Origin: an uncultured archaeon
GTDB taxonomy: Archaea; Asgardarchaeota; Heimdallarchaeia; Heimdallarchaeales; Kariarchaeaceae
Direction: 5' to 3'
Length of the DNA stretch: 30,295 bases
NCBI GenBank assembly: GCA_964645535.1
Contig: CAZYCQ010000041.1
Span: 1-30,295 of the forward strand
Positions within the stretch are counted from its first letter, which is position 1, and each line of letters begins with the position of its first letter. The translations under genes and the position numbers were made by a program. The notes under the pieces are model-generated. The model was not told where the DNA came from, searched no databases, and saw only the letters and a list, made by a program, of their open reading frames with translations. Of the stretch, positions 23,179 to 29,982 are shown one piece after another.

Positions 23179-24054
23179 TCAATGAATTTTTGGAACAAGA
23201 AGATGAACATTCAATTTTCTACAGTATGGACACCTTTCCTCTTTTGTCAACCAACTTTTAATGTGATCTCCATAAACTGAAGAACCACAACAATCTAAGA
23301 TGTACAACTGATCAATTTGTATATCTCTTCGACAGATTATGCAATTGAAATTCCCAAATTTCATAATTGTTTCAATATTAATCTCTTTCATTCTATATCT
23401 GTTTTCGTCATTGATTTGTCCAAGGATATTTTTAATTGACTTGATAAGGTTCAAACTTCTGTTCAGAGCATCACTTAACTGGAAAGAATTCTTTTCGGTT
23501 GTGAGGGTAATTCTCTGTTGGAAGTCGATTCTATTTGTATATAAAAGAATATCATGAAGAACATTGCGAAATTCTGGGTCGGAAAGAAGAGAATTTACAA
23601 GGATAACGTTTGAACATTTAATTGACAGGTCATTACTCAAGTCTGGAAAATCTCCTTTGTTGAAACCAAAAACTTTGTTCAATATACTTCTTTTTTTAAT
23701 AACAAGATCCGTTCGTATTTCCCAGGGAATAGCAAACTGAATTTCAAACATCGAAACTAGAACGTCGTTTTTCTGACTCAATACTTCTCTAACATCAAAA
23801 GTTATTCCCTCTTTTGAAACGATGAAATCCTTAAGAACGGAATAACGAAACATTTTGAAAATTCCCGCCCGATCAATGTTTTTTATATATTGTTCAAAAT
23901 TTGGATCAAATTCAAATCCGTCTGAACTAAGAATTCTGTAGATTGACAGGTTTTTGTAATGGTTATTAAGAACTGAAAAATAATAAATTAACAGAAGAAA
24001 ACCAACGATTAGAAGAATGGCACTGATGAATTGGAACATGAAGCCCCATTCCAT
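23179..24054 (-). CDS. Membrane-anchored RING-finger protein (putative E3 ligase), paralog B
   Basis: N-terminal TM helix. C-terminal CIIC-x13-CC-x4-Y-x2-H-x2-SWL-x5-CPYC. Confidence 0.75.
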   Translation of the reverse strand: MEWGFMFQFISAILLIVGFLLLIYYFSVLNNHYKNLSIYRILSSDGFEFDPNFEQYIKNIDRAGIFKMFRYSVLKDFIVSKEGITFDVREVLSQKNDVLVSMFEIQFAIPWEIRTDLVIKKRSILNKVFGFNKGDFPDLSNDLSIKCSNVILVNSLLSDPEFRNVLHDILLYTNRIDFQQRITLTTEKNSFQLSDALNRSLNLIKSIKNILGQINDENRYRMKEINIETIMKFGNFNCIICRRDIQIDQLYILDCCGSSVYGDHIKSWLTKEERCPYCRKLNVHLLVPKIH

Positions 24055-24124: not shown

Positions 24125-25000
24125 TCAATAACTGTGTGCTATTGGATGCGGATCTAGAAGAACTACGTCTGTTCGTTTACAATAGGGACAACGTGGGTCT
24201 TGGCTCAGCCATCCCAAAATATGCTCTGTATGAGCAACTGATGCACAGCAGTTCAATATTTTCATATTTTGATAAGATGTATTCTTTCGACAAATTACAC
24301 ATTGGAAAGTGAAATTTTCTAATTCTCTCGTGAGCCTTATTTCCTTTACGGTATAACGGACATCACTTTCTACGGTGTTAAGAAGCCTCTGCAAAAGCTG
24401 AGTGAAATTGAGTATGGATTCCAAGGCAAACAATATCCTGTGCCTGTCCTTCGGCACGATAAACGTATTTACCCATCTAATGTCTAGATTCTTTGTATAG
24501 GCCATTACATTTCGTAGCAGACTGAGATTCTGTGGATTGGTCAGTATGCTATTGATAATGAGGAAGTTGGATCCTCTGATATTGAAATCTTTATTCAGAT
24601 GTGAAAAATCTCCGGCATCATATCCAAATATCTTGGACAATAGCCCACGTTTTCGTATTGTTATATCCAGTTGGTTTTTCAGCTTGGGAGGAAATTCAAA
24701 AGTAATCTCATACATTGATTTGGACGTTTCTCCCTGTGTTTCTCTCTTCACTCTTAGTTGAAATGCGATTTGATCCTTCCAAGTCAATATGAATTGGGGT
24801 GGTTTGGTATTGATCCTATCCAACACTGTTCCATTTTGGACTGTTGCGATGTATCTGAGGAAATCATTTGTAAATTGATAACCATAGGAAGCTAAGGTTT
24901 GGAAAAGAAAAACGTTGTCCGAGTGTTCTTTTGATTTTATAAATGCAAAAAAACCAACGATTATGAGAACCATGGTTCCCATAATATAGGCTTCTTCCAT
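24125..25000 (-). CDS. Membrane-anchored RING-finger protein (putative E3 ligase), paralog A
   Basis: N-terminal TM helix. C-terminal CVIC-x13-CC-x4-H-x2-H-x2-GWL-x5-CPYC. Confidence 0.8.
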   Translation of the reverse strand: MEEAYIMGTMVLIIVGFFAFIKSKEHSDNVFLFQTLASYGYQFTNDFLRYIATVQNGTVLDRINTKPPQFILTWKDQIAFQLRVKRETQGETSKSMYEITFEFPPKLKNQLDITIRKRGLLSKIFGYDAGDFSHLNKDFNIRGSNFLIINSILTNPQNLSLLRNVMAYTKNLDIRWVNTFIVPKDRHRILFALESILNFTQLLQRLLNTVESDVRYTVKEIRLTRELENFTFQCVICRKNTSYQNMKILNCCASVAHTEHILGWLSQDPRCPYCKRTDVVLLDPHPIAHSY

Positions 25001-25147: not shown

Positions 25148-25339
25148 ATGGAACTAAACAATCAATCCATTACCACATATCTCTGTCCTGTCTGCGACGG
25201 AGAAAATTCGATTAATGAACAACTCGAAATCGGTGAACTTCTTGACTGTTTTGAGTGTGGAAGTGAGTTGGAGGTAGTAAACACTTCTCCTCTAGAACTA
25301 ATTGAATCCGAAATCGAAGCTGAAGATTGGGGTCAATGA
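25148..25339 (+). CDS. lysW: Amino-group carrier protein LysW/ArgW (C-terminal EDWGQ variant)
   Basis: 63 aa and highly acidic. Zn knuckles CPVC and CFECG, ELEVV..PLEL. Ends GAA GAT TGG GGT CAA TGA (EDWGQ). Confidence 0.93.
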   Translation: MELNNQSITTYLCPVCDGENSINEQLEIGELLDCFECGSELEVVNTSPLELIESEIEAEDWGQ

Positions 25340-25342
25340 AGG

Positions 25343-26206
25343 ATGAAAGTTGCCTTCATTCATTCACTTCTAAGACGTGATGAAAAGCTTCTCATTCATG
25401 AATTTCAGAAGAAAGGCATTCCCTTGGAAAGGATTGATACCAGAAAGGTCAAGTCAGTTGTGGATGACCAAGGGTTTTCGCTTCTGGATGGCAATTCTCT
25501 GTCGTTTGATATCGCCATGGAACGATCCATGGGGATGATGGAGGGATTTCTAACGGCTACCGCTTTGGAGAATATAGGGGTTCCTGTCATCAATTCTTCA
25601 CGGACAATTGCCATTTGTGGAAGCAAAATAGAAACCACTATGGAACTGGCTAAACAGCGTATCCCTCAACCTAAAAGCGGTTGGACAACATCTCCCAATT
25701 CAGCAAAGGAAATTGTTGAGGAAATGGGATATCCGGTTGTCCTTAAACCAATTATAGGTTCATGGGGTAGACTGTTGGCCAAAATCAACGATTCAGATGC
25801 ATTGGAGGCAATCTTGGAACATAAGCAAAGATTGGGTGGTTTGATGCATTCTGTCTTTTATTTTCAGCAATACATCGAAAAAGGCGGAAGAGATATCAGA
25901 GCATTTGTAGTGGGTGATGAATGCATTGCAGCAATTTACAGGAACAGTGACCATTGGATAACGAATACTGCAAGAGGAGGCACTGCCACCAATTGTCCAT
26001 TGAATGAGGAATTGAATGACCTTGCCGTCCGATCTGCTGAAGCTGTCGGAGGTGGAATTGTTGCAGTGGACATCATGGAATCCTCAAAAGGATTTCTTGT
26101 TACCGAAGTCAATGCTACCATGGAATTCAAGAACAGTATTGCCACTACAGGCGTCAATATTCCTGAAAAAATGGTCAACTATGTGATAGAGCAGGCGAGG
26201 CGATAG
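25343..26206 (+). CDS. lysX: LysW--alpha-aminoadipate ligase (RimK/ATP-grasp)
   Basis: [69 protein letters not shown]. Confidence 0.93.
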
Positions 26207-26208
26207 AA

Positions 26209-27228
26209 ATGGTTACAGTTTCAATTATTGGAGGATCTGGATTTGTGGGAGGAGAATTGCTTAGAATCCTTCTGGGACATCCTGAAGTGGAAATTGTACA
26301 GGTTACCTCAGAAAGATTTTCCGGTAGCTATCTCAAAACAGTCCATCCACATTTGAGGGGAAGAACTCAATTAAAATTTGAAAGTGCATCCCATCTCAAG
26401 GATGTGGATGCCATGTTCTTGGCTCTACCTCATGGATATTCATCAAATCGTATCACTGAATTTGATGACCATGCAGAAAAGATCATTGACCTATCTTCAG
26501 ATTTTCGGTTTGCTTCTCCCGAAACCTATAGCAAATGGTATGGCAAGGATCACCCGAATTCTGCATTCCTTGAAAAATTCGTTTATGGTCTTCCTGAACT
26601 TTGGAGAAACGAGATCCGCGATGCAGATTATGTTGCCGTTCCTGGATGCAATGCAACGATTTCCATTCTCTCACTGTTTCCTTTGAGAGACCTGATCAGA
26701 AATGTGACAATAAATGCGACTGTAGGGACTTCTGAAGGTGGAAGAACCCATTCAGAAGCATCACACCATCCGATCAGATCGGGAAGCATGAGAACATATC
26801 GTCCAGTTCTTCATCGTCATATCGGAGAAATCGAGGAACAAATCCAAGCAAGTGGAATCGCTTTCAGTGCAACATCTGTGGACATTGTCAGAGGAGCAAT
26901 GGTGAATATCCATGTACAAACGGACCGCTTCCTTACCGAAAAGGATCTTTGGAAGATTTATCGAAGACAATACGGTGCTGAACCTTTTGTAAGGTTGATC
27001 AATGAGAGAAGGGGAATTTTCAGATATCCCGATCCAAGACTTGTTGCAGGAACAAATTTTGCAGATATTGGCTTTGTTATTGATCCCCATACCGGTGGAA
27101 TCGTGGTTATCGGTGCCATTGACAATCTAATGAAAGGAGCAGCGGGACAGTCAGTCCAAGCGTTCAATCTCATGAACGGATTTGAGGAAACATTGGGACT
27201 TGACTTCCATCCAATTTTTCCATTGTAG
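26209..27228 (+). CDS. lysY: [LysW]-aminoadipyl/glutamyl-phosphate reductase (ArgC family)
   Basis: IIGGSGFVGGELLRIL, VHPHLRG, LALPHG, IDLSSDFR, VYGLPEL, catalytic Cys in PGCNAT, SHHP.RS, HRH..EI, AIDNLMKGAAGQ. Confidence 0.92.
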   Translation: MVTVSIIGGSGFVGGELLRILLGHPEVEIVQVTSERFSGSYLKTVHPHLRGRTQLKFESASHLKDVDAMFLALPHGYSSNRITEFDDHAEKIIDLSSDFRFASPETYSKWYGKDHPNSAFLEKFVYGLPELWRNEIRDADYVAVPGCNATISILSLFPLRDLIRNVTINATVGTSEGGRTHSEASHHPIRSGSMRTYRPVLHRHIGEIEEQIQASGIAFSATSVDIVRGAMVNIHVQTDRFLTEKDLWKIYRRQYGAEPFVRLINERRGIFRYPDPRLVAGTNFADIGFVIDPHTGGIVVIGAIDNLMKGAAGQSVQAFNLMNGFEETLGLDFHPIFPL

Positions 27229-27238
27229 GTGATAAATA

Positions 27239-27919
27239 ATGTGCAGATTATTGAGCGGCAAGTTTCCCTATCCAATACAGATTAATTCGATTCTAGAACA
27301 GTTCGCAGAAGATTGCAGATCAAGCAAGGAATTTCAAGGACATGGATGGGGTATTACCTATCTGACCAATGGACAGTGGATCACCCGGAAATCCATCCAA
27401 CCAATATGGGAATCCCTTCCCGAAGAGCCGATATATACTTCTTCCTTTCTGGTTCATGCAAGATCCGCTTTCAGAGATGCAGGAATCGTCATAGAAAACA
27501 ATATGCCTTTTGAAAACGACAGGTTTGTGTTTGCATTCAATGGTGAACTGAGAAAAGTTAGGTTAAACCTTCCTGGCTCAACAGGTGCCAAAAAGATCTT
27601 CAATTTCTTTCTGAGAAAGCAGGAACCCTCGATTCTACTCAGATGGTCAAAAGTTGCTGCAATTCTCAAAAGGAGAAGTGAATACATCAGGGCGATGAAT
27701 GTCATATTGATTGATAAGGAAACCAATCTTCATTATGCCTATTCCCATTATAATGAGGATCCTGAATATTTTAGGCTCCATAGAATGGCAAGTGGTGGAT
27801 TTGAGTTGATAAGCTCGTTTCCCATTGACAGAAGGCTGTTTATTAATCTTCGGGGTGAGGAACGGCCGAGAATCGTTTACAATGCGGTTCTTGCCAATCA
27901 GGGAATTGAGGTGATCTGA
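27239..27919 (+). CDS. Class II glutamine-amidotransferase-fold Ntn hydrolase (EgtC/YafJ/Dug3-like)
   Basis: N-terminal MCRL (Cys nucleophile), HGWG, HARSA, NNMPF, FAFNG. SD-like AGGTGA upstream. Translationally coupled to the next gene (TGATG). Confidence 0.85.
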   Translation: MCRLLSGKFPYPIQINSILEQFAEDCRSSKEFQGHGWGITYLTNGQWITRKSIQPIWESLPEEPIYTSSFLVHARSAFRDAGIVIENNMPFENDRFVFAFNGELRKVRLNLPGSTGAKKIFNFFLRKQEPSILLRWSKVAAILKRRSEYIRAMNVILIDKETNLHYAYSHYNEDPEYFRLHRMASGGFELISSFPIDRRLFINLRGEERPRIVYNAVLANQGIEVI

Positions 27920-29982
27920 TGAACGTCTTGAAGGTAGGTGGAGGTCAGTCCATCAATTTTGATGCAATAGCTGATTTCATTCGGAATTTGGGAGAGCCGA
28001 CAATTGTTGTTCTGGGTGCAAACAGTGTCAGAAATCAACTGGCATCCCAGCTGGGGATCACTCCCAAAATTCTGACCAGTGCTTCGGGTGTCTCAAGTGT
28101 ATATACTGATGATCAAATGATTGATCTTATTGGTGCTGCATACTCGGGAATTAGAAGAAACCGATTTGTCGCAACCTGCCAAAAAAATGGCATAAACGCC
28201 ATCGGTCTTTCCGGCTTGGATGCCCGGTTGATTGAAGGAAGAAGAACCAAAGGCATCCGGGCCATCGAGAACGGAAAGAAACGAGTTGTCCGGGATCTAA
28301 GTGGAAAACCAAATGAATTGAATGCCGGGTTGCTTGAAAGTCTTTTGGCAATGGATCTTGTTCCGGTGCTTACCATTCCAATCATGGATGAGCATGGCAT
28401 CCCTCTCAACTCGGAAAATGATGACATTGTTGCATTGATCGCCGAGAAAATGAAGGTTCACCGTGTCATTCATTTCATTGAGGCAGAAGGATTGCTTGGA
28501 ACAAATGGTCGTCCCATCTCTGAATTGGGAAAAGAAGGTCTTTTGGAAATGATGGATGCCTTGGATGGAAGAATCAAACGAAAACTGATGTCGTTGCTCA
28601 GAATTCTTGACAAAGGTATTGAAATTCGCATTATGGACGGAAGAAGTTCCAATGTAGTGGAAGATTTCCATTTGGGAAAGGGAACCATCATTGCCAATGA
28701 GGTGCCCTCCAACAAAAAACGTACAAGACCTGAAACCCAAACAATGGTTCTTACCTCCAAAAAATCAGAAATATACTTGGAAAGGGCAGAAGGCATATAT
28801 GTATACGACCACAATGGAAAACGGTATCTTGATTGCAGTGGAGGATGGGGTGTGGCCCTTCTCGGCCATCGGCACTCCAATGTCACTCAGGCCATGATCC
28901 AACAGCTCAGTAGGATTATGACTGCCCCAATCAACCACAGAAATTCCACAAGGGAAGAATTTGTAGATTTCCTTTTGTCATTGGTTCCCTCTCCTCTCAA
29001 CAGGGTGTTTCTCTCGAATTCAGGTACTGAAGCTGTTGAAGCCGCTTTGAAATTTGCAATCTGTACAACCGGACGGTCAAAAATTGTTTCCCATGTCAAG
29101 GGCTTCCATGGAAGAACTCTAGGGTCTCTTTCAGTCACGCATAATCCTCATTTTCGCCGACCTTTTGAAGATCTTCTGAATCCGGACAGAATAACCTTTA
29201 TCCCCCTTAATAATCTTGAGCTTGCCAGAAAATCAATCTCAAATGAAACTGCCGCGGTGATCATTGAAGCAATTCAAGGCGAAGGCGGTGTGAATCAAGC
29301 CTCTGATGAGTATCTTCAAGGCTTGAGAGAAATCTGCAATCACACAGGAACCCTTCTTATCATCGATGAGATCCAGACTGGATTGGGAAGAACTGGGAAT
29401 CTGTTTGCATTTGAAAAATCTGGGATTGTTCCCGACATTCTCTGTCTCGCAAAAGGATTGGGCGGTGGATTTCCCATAGGTGCAACGATTGTGTCTGAAA
29501 AGGTTGACGTAGCATATGGAATGCATGGGTCAACATTTGGGGGAAATCCCATGGCCTGTGCAGCTGGGTTGGCAACTCTCCAGACATTGGTCTCCGATGG
29601 ATTGATCGAAAATGCTCAAATACAGGGTGATAACCTACTGAGGAGATTGAAGGAACTTTCTCGTGAGTTTCCTCTTATCCGTGAAATACGAGGAAGAGGT
29701 CTGATGATTGCAATTGTATTAAGAAGATCTCATAAAACCCTTCTTGGACATCTCCTTGATGAAGGAATCCTCTCCATCCCGACCGGCCGAAACATCATTC
29801 GCCTGTTGCCTCCGCTTACCATTTCAAGTGCCGAGATCGATCAGATTGTCTGTGGCCTCAGAAATGCCCTTCTGAAGACAAATGACAAGGTTTTCAAAAG
29901 AACAAATACCATAGAAATGCATACAAATGGGACGGAAGACCAATTCCGATGCAGTGGCAAAACCTCTGGAATCATTGGATGA
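27919..29982 (+). CDS. lysZ-lysJ: Fused [LysW]-aminoadipate kinase (LysZ/ArgB) and [LysW]-aminoadipate semialdehyde aminotransferase (LysJ/ArgD)
   Basis: N-terminal about 260 aa: VLKVGG, SGVSSVYTD, AIGLSGLD, DLSGK, LNSEND, GRIKRKL, GTII. C-terminal part: YLDCSGGWGV..LGH, NSGTEAVEAA.K, GFHGRT, EAIQGEGG, DEIQTG.GRTG, PLP Lys in LAKGLGGG, HGSTFGGNP, IRLLPPL. SD-like GAGGTGA upstream. Confidence 0.9.
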   Translation: MNVLKVGGGQSINFDAIADFIRNLGEPTIVVLGANSVRNQLASQLGITPKILTSASGVSSVYTDDQMIDLIGAAYSGIRRNRFVATCQKNGINAIGLSGLDARLIEGRRTKGIRAIENGKKRVVRDLSGKPNELNAGLLESLLAMDLVPVLTIPIMDEHGIPLNSENDDIVALIAEKMKVHRVIHFIEAEGLLGTNGRPISELGKEGLLEMMDALDGRIKRKLMSLLRILDKGIEIRIMDGRSSNVVEDFHLGKGTIIANEVPSNKKRTRPETQTMVLTSKKSEIYLERAEGIYVYDHNGKRYLDCSGGWGVALLGHRHSNVTQAMIQQLSRIMTAPINHRNSTREEFVDFLLSLVPSPLNRVFLSNSGTEAVEAALKFAICTTGRSKIVSHVKGFHGRTLGSLSVTHNPHFRRPFEDLLNPDRITFIPLNNLELARKSISNETAAVIIEAIQGEGGVNQASDEYLQGLREICNHTGTLLIIDEIQTGLGRTGNLFAFEKSGIVPDILCLAKGLGGGFPIGATIVSEKVDVAYGMHGSTFGGNPMACAAGLATLQTLVSDGLIENAQIQGDNLLRRLKELSREFPLIREIRGRGLMIAIVLRRSHKTLLGHLLDEGILSIPTGRNIIRLLPPLTISSAEIDQIVCGLRNALLKTNDKVFKRTNTIEMHTNGTEDQFRCSGKTSGIIG

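What the first reader, a model, noticed from the sequence alone, without database searches (positions are those of the whole stretch)
25322..25339. LysW ends in EDWGQ rather than EDWGE, so it lacks the gamma-carboxylate LysX needs
Seen: codons GAA GAT TGG GGT CAA TGA. Known: LysX/ArgX phosphorylates the gamma-carboxyl of the C-terminal Glu to ligate the substrate amine, and a Gln side chain cannot be activated that way. Inference: the carrier is made as an inactive pro-form needing deamidation (a possible control point), or loading uses the alpha-carboxyl or transamidation. CAA versus GAA is a single base, so a sequencing error is possible. Q-ending homologs may already exist in databases.
Basis: partly seen in the sequence, partly recalled or inferred. 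Interest (0 to 1): 0.75.

Follow-up and report, generated by a model that had tools for sequence, protein, structure and literature searches.

The report
Glutamine-capped LysW carrier protein
This Asgard (Heimdall-group) archaeon really does encode its only amino-acid carrier protein, LysW, with a terminal glutamine where the known chemistry needs a glutamate; the variant is conserved and recurs in many microbes, so it most likely needs a one-time "uncapping", probably by a cysteine amidase in the same operon.

Summary
The 63-aa LysW at 25148-25339 ends AEDWGQ (GAA GAT TGG GGT CAA TGA).

It is not a sequencing error. All five related Heimdallarchaeota species genomes with a LysW also end in Gln, using both CAA and CAG. 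The genome has one LysW, one LysX and no LysK above the curated cut-off.

Gln-ended LysW is widespread:
- 12 of 99 LysW-type cluster representatives end in Gln.
- 14 of 62 LysW genes beside the amidase in species genomes do.
- There were at least 9 E/Q switches.
- No other terminal residue was seen.

An EgtC-like Cys-Ntn amidohydrolase (27239-27919) lies between lysY and lysZJ, here and in hundreds of bacterial operons that lack LysK. A predicted complex puts the LysW tail into its active site (0.69, best control 0.47).

Best reading (about 0.55): LysW-Gln is a pro-carrier deamidated once to LysW-Glu. This amidase does it, and it also replaces LysK as the release enzyme. This is analogous to Pup and Dop.

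One caveat weakens a strict link to the amidase. Another Asgard genus has EDWGQ in a canonical LysK operon with no such amidase.

Nothing here is biochemically shown. The scan had already noted this phenomenon on other genomes. No paper in the held library mentions it.

The parts
25148..25339 (+). lysW: 63-aa zinc-ribbon amino-group carrier protein (C13, C16, C34, C37) with an acidic tail ending EDWGQ
   Evidence: ORF; Pfam PF21344 45.6 bits; only LysW in the genome
25334..25339 (+). Terminal Gln codon CAA followed by stop TGA. This is the position that is Glu (GAA/GAG) in characterised LysW.
   Evidence: relatives carry CAA or CAG here
25343..26206 (+). lysX: ATP-grasp ligase that loads the carrier
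   Evidence: TIGR02144 LysX_arch 346.5 bits against cut-off 275.6; only copy over the cut-off in the genome
26209..27228 (+). lysY/argC-type semialdehyde-forming reductase
   Evidence: TIGR01850 359.8 bits
27239..27919 (+). EgtC-like stand-alone Cys-Ntn (class II glutaminase fold) amidohydrolase, starting MCR. It is the candidate deamidase of LysW-Gln and the candidate LysK substitute.
   Evidence: Weak GATase_4/EgtC hits. AF2 model pLDDT 92.8. Best PDB fold match is EgtC, TM 0.75. Same operon position in 4 Heimdall relatives and many bacteria. Predicted complex with LysW scores 0.69 against best control 0.47.
27919..29982 (+). lysZ-lysJ fusion (amino-acid kinase plus class III aminotransferase)
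   Evidence: PF00696 and PF00202 in one 687-aa ORF

Best explanation
LysW of this Heimdallarchaeote is genuinely translated with a C-terminal glutamine and is a capped pro-carrier. Before LysX can act, the side-chain amide of Gln63 is hydrolysed once per molecule to give the canonical C-terminal glutamate. LysX (ATP-grasp) then phosphorylates its gamma-carboxylate and ligates glutamate and/or alpha-aminoadipate. LysZ-LysJ and LysY process the bound substrate, and a hydrolase releases ornithine/lysine and regenerates LysW-Glu. The most likely deamidase is the operon's EgtC-like Cys-Ntn amidohydrolase (27239-27919). Its main job is probably the release step that LysK performs elsewhere, that is, cleaving the gamma-glutamyl amide. 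A terminal Gln is simply gamma-glutamyl-NH2, the smallest such amide, so the release enzyme can also uncap a new carrier. This parallels Dop, which both deamidates Pup-Gln and depupylates. Shown here: sequence, conservation, recurrence, operon architecture, fold and absence of LysK. Inferred: deamidation, the enzyme responsible, and its release function.
For: (1) Gln is real and maintained. Six of six LysW-bearing genomes of the family end EDWGQ, with both CAA and CAG.
(2) The carrier is needed. The genome (89% complete) has one LysW, one LysX, no ArgJ, and no LysA or homocitrate synthase above the cut-offs.
(3) Only E or Q ends the tail: 87 E and 12 Q among LysW-type representatives, and 48 E and 14 Q in genome loci. 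None of the other single-base neighbours of GAA (K, D, A, G, V) appears. This is expected if Q is convertible to E.
(4) E/Q switched repeatedly between close relatives with the same operon: 9 changes on an unbiased 66-locus tree and 12 on 82 loci.
(5) The amidase gene lies between lysY and lysZ in all 4 Heimdall relatives with enough contig. It also lies in LysW operons of Melioribacter, Ignavibacteria, Binatia, Arenicellales, Gemmatimonadota and Acanthopleuribacter.
(6) LysK (TIGR01902) is below its cut-off in all 7 amidase-type genomes tested. The same search finds it in 4 control genomes and in Asgard genus g28.
(7) In a scan for EEDWGQ-stop made without reference to the amidase, all 15 loci where the whole operon is visible carry the amidase.
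(8) The closest fold is EgtC, a gamma-glutamyl amide hydrolase also crystallised with glutamine.
(9) Predicted complex: ipSAE 0.69 (runs 0.69, 0.67, 0.73) against best control 0.47. That mark was reached by 58 of 80 solved complexes and 2 of 110 mismatched pairs. Runs agree in at least 98% of contacts and partner pLDDT is at least 79. The interface comprises amidase C2, R75-F78, N101-G102 and 115-120, and LysW 58-63.
(10) Precedent from established knowledge: Pup is encoded ending in Gln in mycobacteria and Glu in other actinobacteria. Dop deamidates it and also cleaves the isopeptide.
Against: No biochemical evidence exists for deamidation or for any activity of the amidase. The amidase is not specific to Gln-ended carriers: 48 of 62 amidase-type operons have EDWGE, so its primary role cannot be uncapping. 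Gln-ended LysW also occurs without it. In Asgard genus g28, four species carry EDWGQ in a canonical lysW-X-Y-Z-J-lysK operon, and the three of them searched (96-97% and 87% complete) have no amidase orthologue. Another archaeal lineage has a stand-alone Gln-ended LysW with no amidase next to it. So some other route to a functional carrier must exist at least there. The complex score exceeds its best control by only 0.22, just above the 0.20 margin, and the alignments were my own. Pfam and NCBIfam hits of the amidase fall below curated cut-offs.
Confidence: 0.55

Rival explanations
1. LysW-Gln is deamidated to LysW-Glu, but by something other than the operon's Ntn amidase. Candidates are an M20-type hydrolase or a general cellular amidase. 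The Ntn enzyme only performs release.
For: Gln-ended LysW exists in a LysK-type operon in genomes with no Ntn orthologue. The window's genome carries M20 paralogues scoring 87-93 bits against the LysK model. One turnover per carrier molecule would be enough, so a weak side activity could suffice (inference).
Against: Class II glutaminase-fold enzymes hydrolyse exactly this amide, and the LysW tail is predicted to enter the Ntn active site. All 15 assessable Gln-type loci from the unbiased scan carry the Ntn gene. The g28 genomes also have a second, Glu-ended LysW that could compensate.
Confidence: 0.17
2. The Gln is never converted. LysX, or LysX plus a partner, attaches the substrate in another way, for example to the alpha-carboxylate as RimK, MptN and CofF do. 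Alternatively, the Ntn enzyme forms a gamma-glutamyl thioester from Gln and transfers it to the substrate amine (transamidation).
For: LysX belongs to the RimK family of alpha-L-glutamate ligases. Cys-Ntn enzymes pass through a gamma-glutamyl thioester (established mechanism). An alpha linkage would make E and Q interchangeable.
Against: Close relatives flip between E and Q with highly similar LysX and unchanged operons, so a change of chemistry at each flip is unlikely. If the side chain were irrelevant, other residues should also appear, but only E and Q do. A canonical LysX scoring above its equivalog cut-off is retained. Published structures and MS show gamma linkage for Glu-type LysW (established knowledge; PMC12998189 describes AAA attached to the C-terminal Glu of LysW).
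Confidence: 0.1
3. Gln-ended LysW is a dead or regulatory carrier (a decoy or a decaying pathway) and is not used for biosynthesis.
For: Gln cannot be activated by LysX (established chemistry). The LysW pathway is patchy within this class of archaea: 7 of 83 genomes score above the cut-off.
Against: It is the only LysW in the genome. The whole operon is intact and conserved across three genera. The Gln codon is maintained through synonymous change. No ArgJ or LysA alternative was found. The cultured Acanthopleuribacter pedis also has a Gln-ended LysW as its sole copy.
Confidence: 0.07
4. Sequencing or assembly error (CAA for GAA).
For: It is a single-base difference, and the reads could not be inspected.
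Against: The same residue is found in five independent related assemblies with CAA or CAG, and in dozens of other genomes and metagenomes.
Confidence: 0.01

Closest known systems
LysW/ArgW amino-group carrier protein pathway (Thermus thermophilus LysWXZYJK; Sulfolobus/Sulfurisphaera; Thermococcus kodakarensis)
   Same: Zinc-ribbon carrier with an acidic EDWG tail, directly followed by a LysX ATP-grasp ligase, a LysY reductase, a LysZ kinase and a LysJ aminotransferase.
   Different: The terminal residue is Gln, not Glu. There is no LysK (M20) in the operon or above the cut-off in the genome. An EgtC-like Cys-Ntn amidohydrolase is inserted between lysY and lysZ, and lysZ and lysJ are fused.
Pup/Dop/PafA pupylation system of actinobacteria
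   Same: A small protein is ligated through the gamma-carboxylate of its C-terminal Glu by an ATP-dependent ligase. It is encoded ending in Gln in some lineages and Glu in others. In the Pup system one hydrolase both deamidates the Gln and cleaves the gamma-glutamyl isopeptide. This rests on established knowledge and is a mechanistic analogy only.
   Different: No sequence or fold relationship. Dop and PafA are glutamine-synthetase-like, whereas here the ligase is an ATP-grasp enzyme and the candidate hydrolase is a Cys-Ntn enzyme. The carrier also serves biosynthesis rather than protein tagging.
EgtC, gamma-glutamyl-hercynylcysteine sulfoxide hydrolase (PDB 4zfj, 4zfk, 4zfl)
   Same: A stand-alone class II glutaminase-fold Ntn hydrolase of about 230 aa with Cys as the first mature residue. 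It cleaves a gamma-glutamyl amide and is the best structural match (TM 0.75, E 1e-10).
   Different: Only 13-15% identity. The family here has its own strict motifs (MCR, QGHGWG, HARSAF, ENNMPF, FNGEL). It is embedded in LysW operons, so its acyl donor would be a protein C-terminus rather than free gamma-glutamyl.
LysK, [LysW]-lysine/ornithine hydrolase (M20, TIGR01902)
   Same: It performs the step that this operon appears to lack, hydrolysis of the gamma-glutamyl amide between LysW and the product.
   Different: An unrelated metallopeptidase fold. It scores below its cut-off in this genome and in 6 other amidase-type genomes, but is present in the LysK-type Asgard operons.

Membership tests
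LysW/AmCP (PF21344, TIGR01206, NF041070) | Zinc-ribbon globular domain with two CxxC pairs | tested here: met
   C13, C16, C34 and C37 are invariant; PF21344 scores 45.6 bits against gathering score 27
LysW/AmCP (PF21344, TIGR01206, NF041070) | Score above the NCBIfam curated cut-off | tested here: not met
   TIGR01206 scores 40.6 against 53.2, and NF041070 scores 44 against 75. This is a divergent member.
LysW/AmCP (PF21344, TIGR01206, NF041070) | Acidic C-terminal tail with the EDWG motif | tested here: met
   ...ESEIEAEDWG-Q
LysW/AmCP (PF21344, TIGR01206, NF041070) | C-terminal Glu whose gamma-carboxylate carries the substrate | tested here: not met
   The encoded terminal residue is Gln (CAA). 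Whether the mature protein ends in Glu cannot be tested with these tools.
LysW/AmCP (PF21344, TIGR01206, NF041070) | Genomic coupling to LysX, LysY, LysZ and LysJ | tested here: met
   The operon runs 25148-29982
Class II glutamine amidotransferase / Cys-Ntn hydrolase (EgtC-like, PF13230) | Cys directly after the initiator Met, serving as N-terminal nucleophile | tested here: met
   The protein starts MCR, and C2 and R3 are invariant in 67 homologues
Class II glutamine amidotransferase / Cys-Ntn hydrolase (EgtC-like, PF13230) | Ntn alpha-beta-beta-alpha fold | tested here: met
   Model pLDDT 92.8. Foldseek top hits are EgtC, PurF and the GlmS glutaminase domain, all at probability 1.00.
Class II glutamine amidotransferase / Cys-Ntn hydrolase (EgtC-like, PF13230) | Score above the Pfam/NCBIfam curated cut-off | tested here: not met
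   PF13230 scores 20.7 against 23, and TIGR03442 EgtC scores 20 against 218.65. It shares the fold superfamily but is not EgtC itself.
Class II glutamine amidotransferase / Cys-Ntn hydrolase (EgtC-like, PF13230) | Hydrolysis of a gamma-glutamyl amide (Gln or isopeptide) | not testable with these tools
   Needs an enzyme assay
LysK (TIGR01902) | An M20 hydrolase scoring above 163.1 bits somewhere in the genome | tested here: not met
   Best hits score 93.2 and 86.6 bits. True LysK in Asgard g28 scores 228-298 bits, and those genomes also carry paralogues of about 100-110 bits.
Pup/Dop-type capped modifier | Homology to Pup, Dop or PafA | not tested
   This is an analogy of mechanism only, and no homology is claimed.

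The most novel reading that the evidence does not exclude
Amino-group carrier proteins have a Pup-like life cycle. In many bacteria and archaea LysW is made capped as Gln and must be activated by deamidation. The enzyme that releases the finished amino acid doubles as the activator. That enzyme is an undescribed Cys-Ntn amidohydrolase family that non-orthologously replaces LysK. Capping could act as a checkpoint that ties carrier activation to the presence of the release enzyme.
Probability: 0.45. Interest if true: 0.75.

Novelty: new variant of a known kind. Interest (0 to 1): 0.62.

Why it matters
The LysW pathway is the textbook example of carrier-protein-mediated amino acid biosynthesis, and its chemistry depends on one C-terminal glutamate. 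About a tenth to a fifth of LysW families encode a glutamine there, including the sole carrier of this Asgard archaeon and of a cultured bacterium (Acanthopleuribacter pedis). This implies a missing post-translational step or an unknown loading chemistry. It also points to an uncharacterised, widespread enzyme family, with more than 2,400 proteins at 90% clustering, as the likely release and activation enzyme of LysK-less pathways. Both ideas can be tested directly with recombinant proteins and mass spectrometry. Genome annotation pipelines currently call the amidase 'class II glutamine amidotransferase' or 'hypothetical'. They would also score such pathways as incomplete because LysK is missing.

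Tried and rejected
Conservation was used instead.

This omits tails such as AEDWGQ.

(3) A 15-nt pattern over the class was too noisy alone, since the control also matched. It was used only where a LysW model hit coincided.

(4) My working hypothesis that Gln-ended LysW occurs only with the Ntn amidase was rejected. Asgard genus g28 has EDWGQ in a LysK operon with no amidase orthologue.

(5) L175 looked like a Gln-type locus without the amidase. In fact the locus ends inside lysZ, and a homocitrate-synthase-like gene fills the lysY-lysZ gap, so it cannot be assessed.

(6) The 185-aa gene after the stand-alone Gln-type LysW in L311 is unrelated to the amidase.

(7) Sequence alignment to EgtC stops before the position of the alpha-amino-binding Asp of GlmS-type enzymes.

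(8) Earlier scan notes say Gln-ended LysW is normal in ammonia-oxidising archaea. I had no handle on such genomes and did not test this.

(9) Which amino acid this operon makes (Lys, Arg or both) was not settled. No homocitrate synthase, LysA or ArgJ scored above the cut-offs in an 89%-complete genome.

Full report
**Observation.** The window reads GAA GAT TGG GGT CAA TGA at 25322-25339. This closes a 63-aa ORF, 25148-25339 on the + strand, that ends ...ESEIEAEDWGQ. The protein is a LysW-type carrier. Pfam Zn_ribbon_LysW scores 45.6 bits against a gathering score of 27. The two NCBIfam LysW models hit at E about 1e-10 to 1e-11 but below their curated cut-offs. It has the two CxxC pairs and the acidic EDWG tail.

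Downstream, tightly packed, lie four genes:
- lysX, 25343-26206 (TIGR02144, 346.5 bits)
- lysY/argC, 26209-27228
- a 226-aa protein starting MCR, 27239-27919, with weak GATase_4/EgtC hits
- a lysZ-lysJ fusion, 27919-29982

**Not an error.** The organism is a Heimdallarchaeote. Its relatives' contigs are titled Candidatus Heimdallarchaeota, and two membrane RING proteins lie upstream. Among 11 other genomes of the same family, five have a LysW, and all five end EDWGQ. They are G001-G003 (same genus) and G006 and G007 (two other genera). The terminal codon is CAA in three genomes and CAG in three, and the stops are TGA, TAA or TAG. So Gln has been kept through synonymous change, and there is no conserved read-through. 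Reads could not be inspected.

**The carrier is needed.** The genome (89% complete) has one LysW and one LysX over the cut-off. It has no LysK over the cut-off; the best M20 hits score 93 and 87 bits against a cut-off of 163. No ArgJ was found. No LysA or homocitrate synthase scored above the cut-offs. Which amino acid the operon makes was not settled.

**How common is a Gln end?**
- A profile of the Gln-type LysWs, searched against 1.84 billion cluster representatives, returned 86 EDWGE, 11 EDWGQ and 1 EDYGQ among the best 150.
- Of all representatives ending in the [ED][DE][WFY]G-x motif, x is E in 87 and Q in 12, and never anything else.
- Gln-ended LysW occurs in Acanthopleuribacter pedis, a cultured acidobacterium, where it is annotated simply as LysW (WP_207861610.1). 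It is the only LysW in that genome.
- The word EDWGQ occurs in no paper of the held library.

**The extra gene.** The MCR protein belongs to a large, well-conserved family. More than 2,400 proteins are about 45% identical, with invariant MCR, QGHGWG, HARSAF, ENNMPF and FNGEL motifs. It lies between lysY and lysZ in all four Heimdall relatives whose contigs reach that far. It holds the same place in LysW operons of Melioribacter, a 'Woesearchaeota' MAG, Acanthopleuribacter and many others. At least 527 loci were found in species genomes.

Its AF2 model is confident (pLDDT 92.8). The best solved matches are EgtC, TM 0.75 and E 1e-10, followed by the PurF and GlmS glutaminase domains. EgtC is the Cys-Ntn hydrolase that cleaves a gamma-glutamyl amide in ergothioneine synthesis, and it was also crystallised with glutamine.

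LysK is below its cut-off in all seven amidase-type genomes tested, including complete chromosomes. The same search detects LysK in four control genomes. W, X, Y, Z and J are all present and only the release step is missing, so this enzyme most likely replaces LysK.

**Link between Gln and the amidase.**
- In 62 amidase-containing genome loci with a detectable LysW, 48 end EDWGE and 14 end EDWGQ. The amidase is therefore not specific to Gln carriers.
- Close relatives differ. Arenicellales, Ignavibacteria, Bacteroidota and Calditrichota each include both states.
- On an amidase tree of 66 genome-derived loci the label changes at least 9 times. With metagenome loci added it changes 12 times, of which 6 are forced by well-supported branches.
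- A metagenome scan for EEDWGQ-stop, blind to the amidase, gave 50 true LysW ends. All 15 loci where the operon is visible to its end contain the amidase. The one apparent exception, L175, is cut inside lysZ.

**A counter-example.** Across 400 Asgard genomes, 72 have LysW. Every terminus I could read outside the window's family is Glu, with one exception, and none of those loci carries the amidase. The exception is genus g28. There, copy 1 of LysW sits in a canonical lysW-X-Y-Z-J-lysK operon. It ends EDWGQ in four species and EDWGE in two. The three Gln-type and two Glu-type g28 genomes that were searched have true LysK (228-298 bits) and no amidase orthologue. They also carry a second, Glu-ended LysW operon.

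Another archaeal lineage has a stand-alone Gln-ended LysW (P0280). Its 74%-identical relative ends in Glu, and its neighbouring gene is unrelated to the amidase. So the Gln cap is more frequent with the amidase, but it is not restricted to it.

**Predicted complex.** The amidase (residues 2-226) with LysW gave ipSAE 0.69 (runs 0.69, 0.67, 0.73) against a best control of 0.47. That mark was reached by 58 of 80 solved complexes and 2 of 110 mismatched pairs. The runs agree in at least 98% of contacts, and partner pLDDT is at least 79.

The interface comprises:
- Cys2 of the amidase
- R75-F78 (the HARSAF arginine, which in GlmS-type enzymes binds the glutamine alpha-carboxylate)
- N101-G102 (oxyanion hole) and residues 115-120
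- the LysW tail 58-63, with Trp61 buried

This supports binding of the tail in the active site, but it does not show it.

**Mechanism.** The most economical reading has five steps:
1. LysW is made as LysW-Gln.
2. The Cys-Ntn amidase attacks the gamma-amide, releases ammonia through a thioester, and leaves LysW-Glu.
3. LysX phosphorylates the new gamma-carboxylate and ligates the substrate.
4. LysZ-LysJ and LysY convert it.
5. The same amidase cleaves the gamma-glutamyl amide to release the product and regenerate LysW-Glu.

The carrier is recycled, so uncapping is needed only once per molecule. That makes a GAA-to-CAA change nearly neutral wherever the release enzyme accepts gamma-glutamyl-NH2. 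This explains why E and Q alternate and why no other residue appears. The precedent is Pup: it ends in Gln or Glu depending on lineage, and Dop both deamidates and depupylates (established knowledge).

The steps shown here are sequence, conservation, recurrence, operon make-up, fold and lack of LysK. The steps inferred are the deamidation, the enzyme that performs it, and its release function. The g28 case means that either LysK or another amidase can also uncap, or the second carrier compensates there.

**Rivals.**
- Deamidation by another enzyme: 0.17.
- Direct use of LysW-Gln, by alpha-carboxyl ligation or thioester transamidation: 0.10. This is disfavoured because the chemistry would have to change at each E/Q flip, and because only E or Q is tolerated.
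- An inactive or regulatory carrier: 0.07. This is disfavoured because it is the sole, conserved carrier.
- Sequencing error: 0.01.

**Novelty.** The LysW pathway is known. The Gln cap and the Ntn substitute for LysK are not described in the literature I could search. The sequences are in public databases, however. Earlier notes of this scan had already reported the same phenomenon on other genomes: ammonia-oxidising archaea, Jordarchaeia, other Asgard archaea and bacteria. I class it as a new variant of a known kind.

Noticed in passing
window 23179-24054 and 24125-25000 (- strand): Two tandem 291-aa proteins, each with an N-terminal hydrophobic segment and a C-terminal RING-like CxxC...H...CPYC motif. 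They resemble membrane E3 ligases and fit an Asgard origin.
   Followed up: no
window 27919-29982: LysZ (amino-acid kinase) and LysJ (class III aminotransferase) are fused in one 687-aa ORF. The fusion is also seen in G002 and G003. In G006 and G007 lysJ lies on the other strand upstream of lysW.
   Followed up: partly
L308:10001-10168 and L309:10001-10168: LysW-like zinc-ribbon proteins ending EDWGQ (P0157, P0205) lie in contigs full of small ORFs without Pfam hits, plus glycosyltransferases. The context looks viral, and no LysX is nearby.
   Followed up: no
G001:C367:7165-7831; G006:C222:20250-20822: The amidase orthologue is split into two ORFs in G001. In G006 it contains one in-frame TGA near the contig end. 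These could be assembly errors, frameshifts or decay.
   Followed up: no
L261-L267 (Asgard genus g28): These genomes carry two LysW operons, each with its own LysX and LysK. Only copy 1 (W-X-Y-Z-J-K) switched to Gln, in four of six species. Copy 2 (W-X-Z-like-K) stays Glu.
   Followed up: partly
L122 and L153 (metagenome): A divergent branch of the amidase (31-36% identity) sits after lysJ rather than between lysY and lysZ, again with Gln-ended LysW.
   Followed up: no
G000:C31:31368-32462 and G000:C1:2017-3117: M20 peptidase paralogues score 87-93 bits against the LysK model, below the cut-off of 163. A similar class of about 100-110 bits coexists with true LysK in g28, so these are probably not LysK.
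   Followed up: partly
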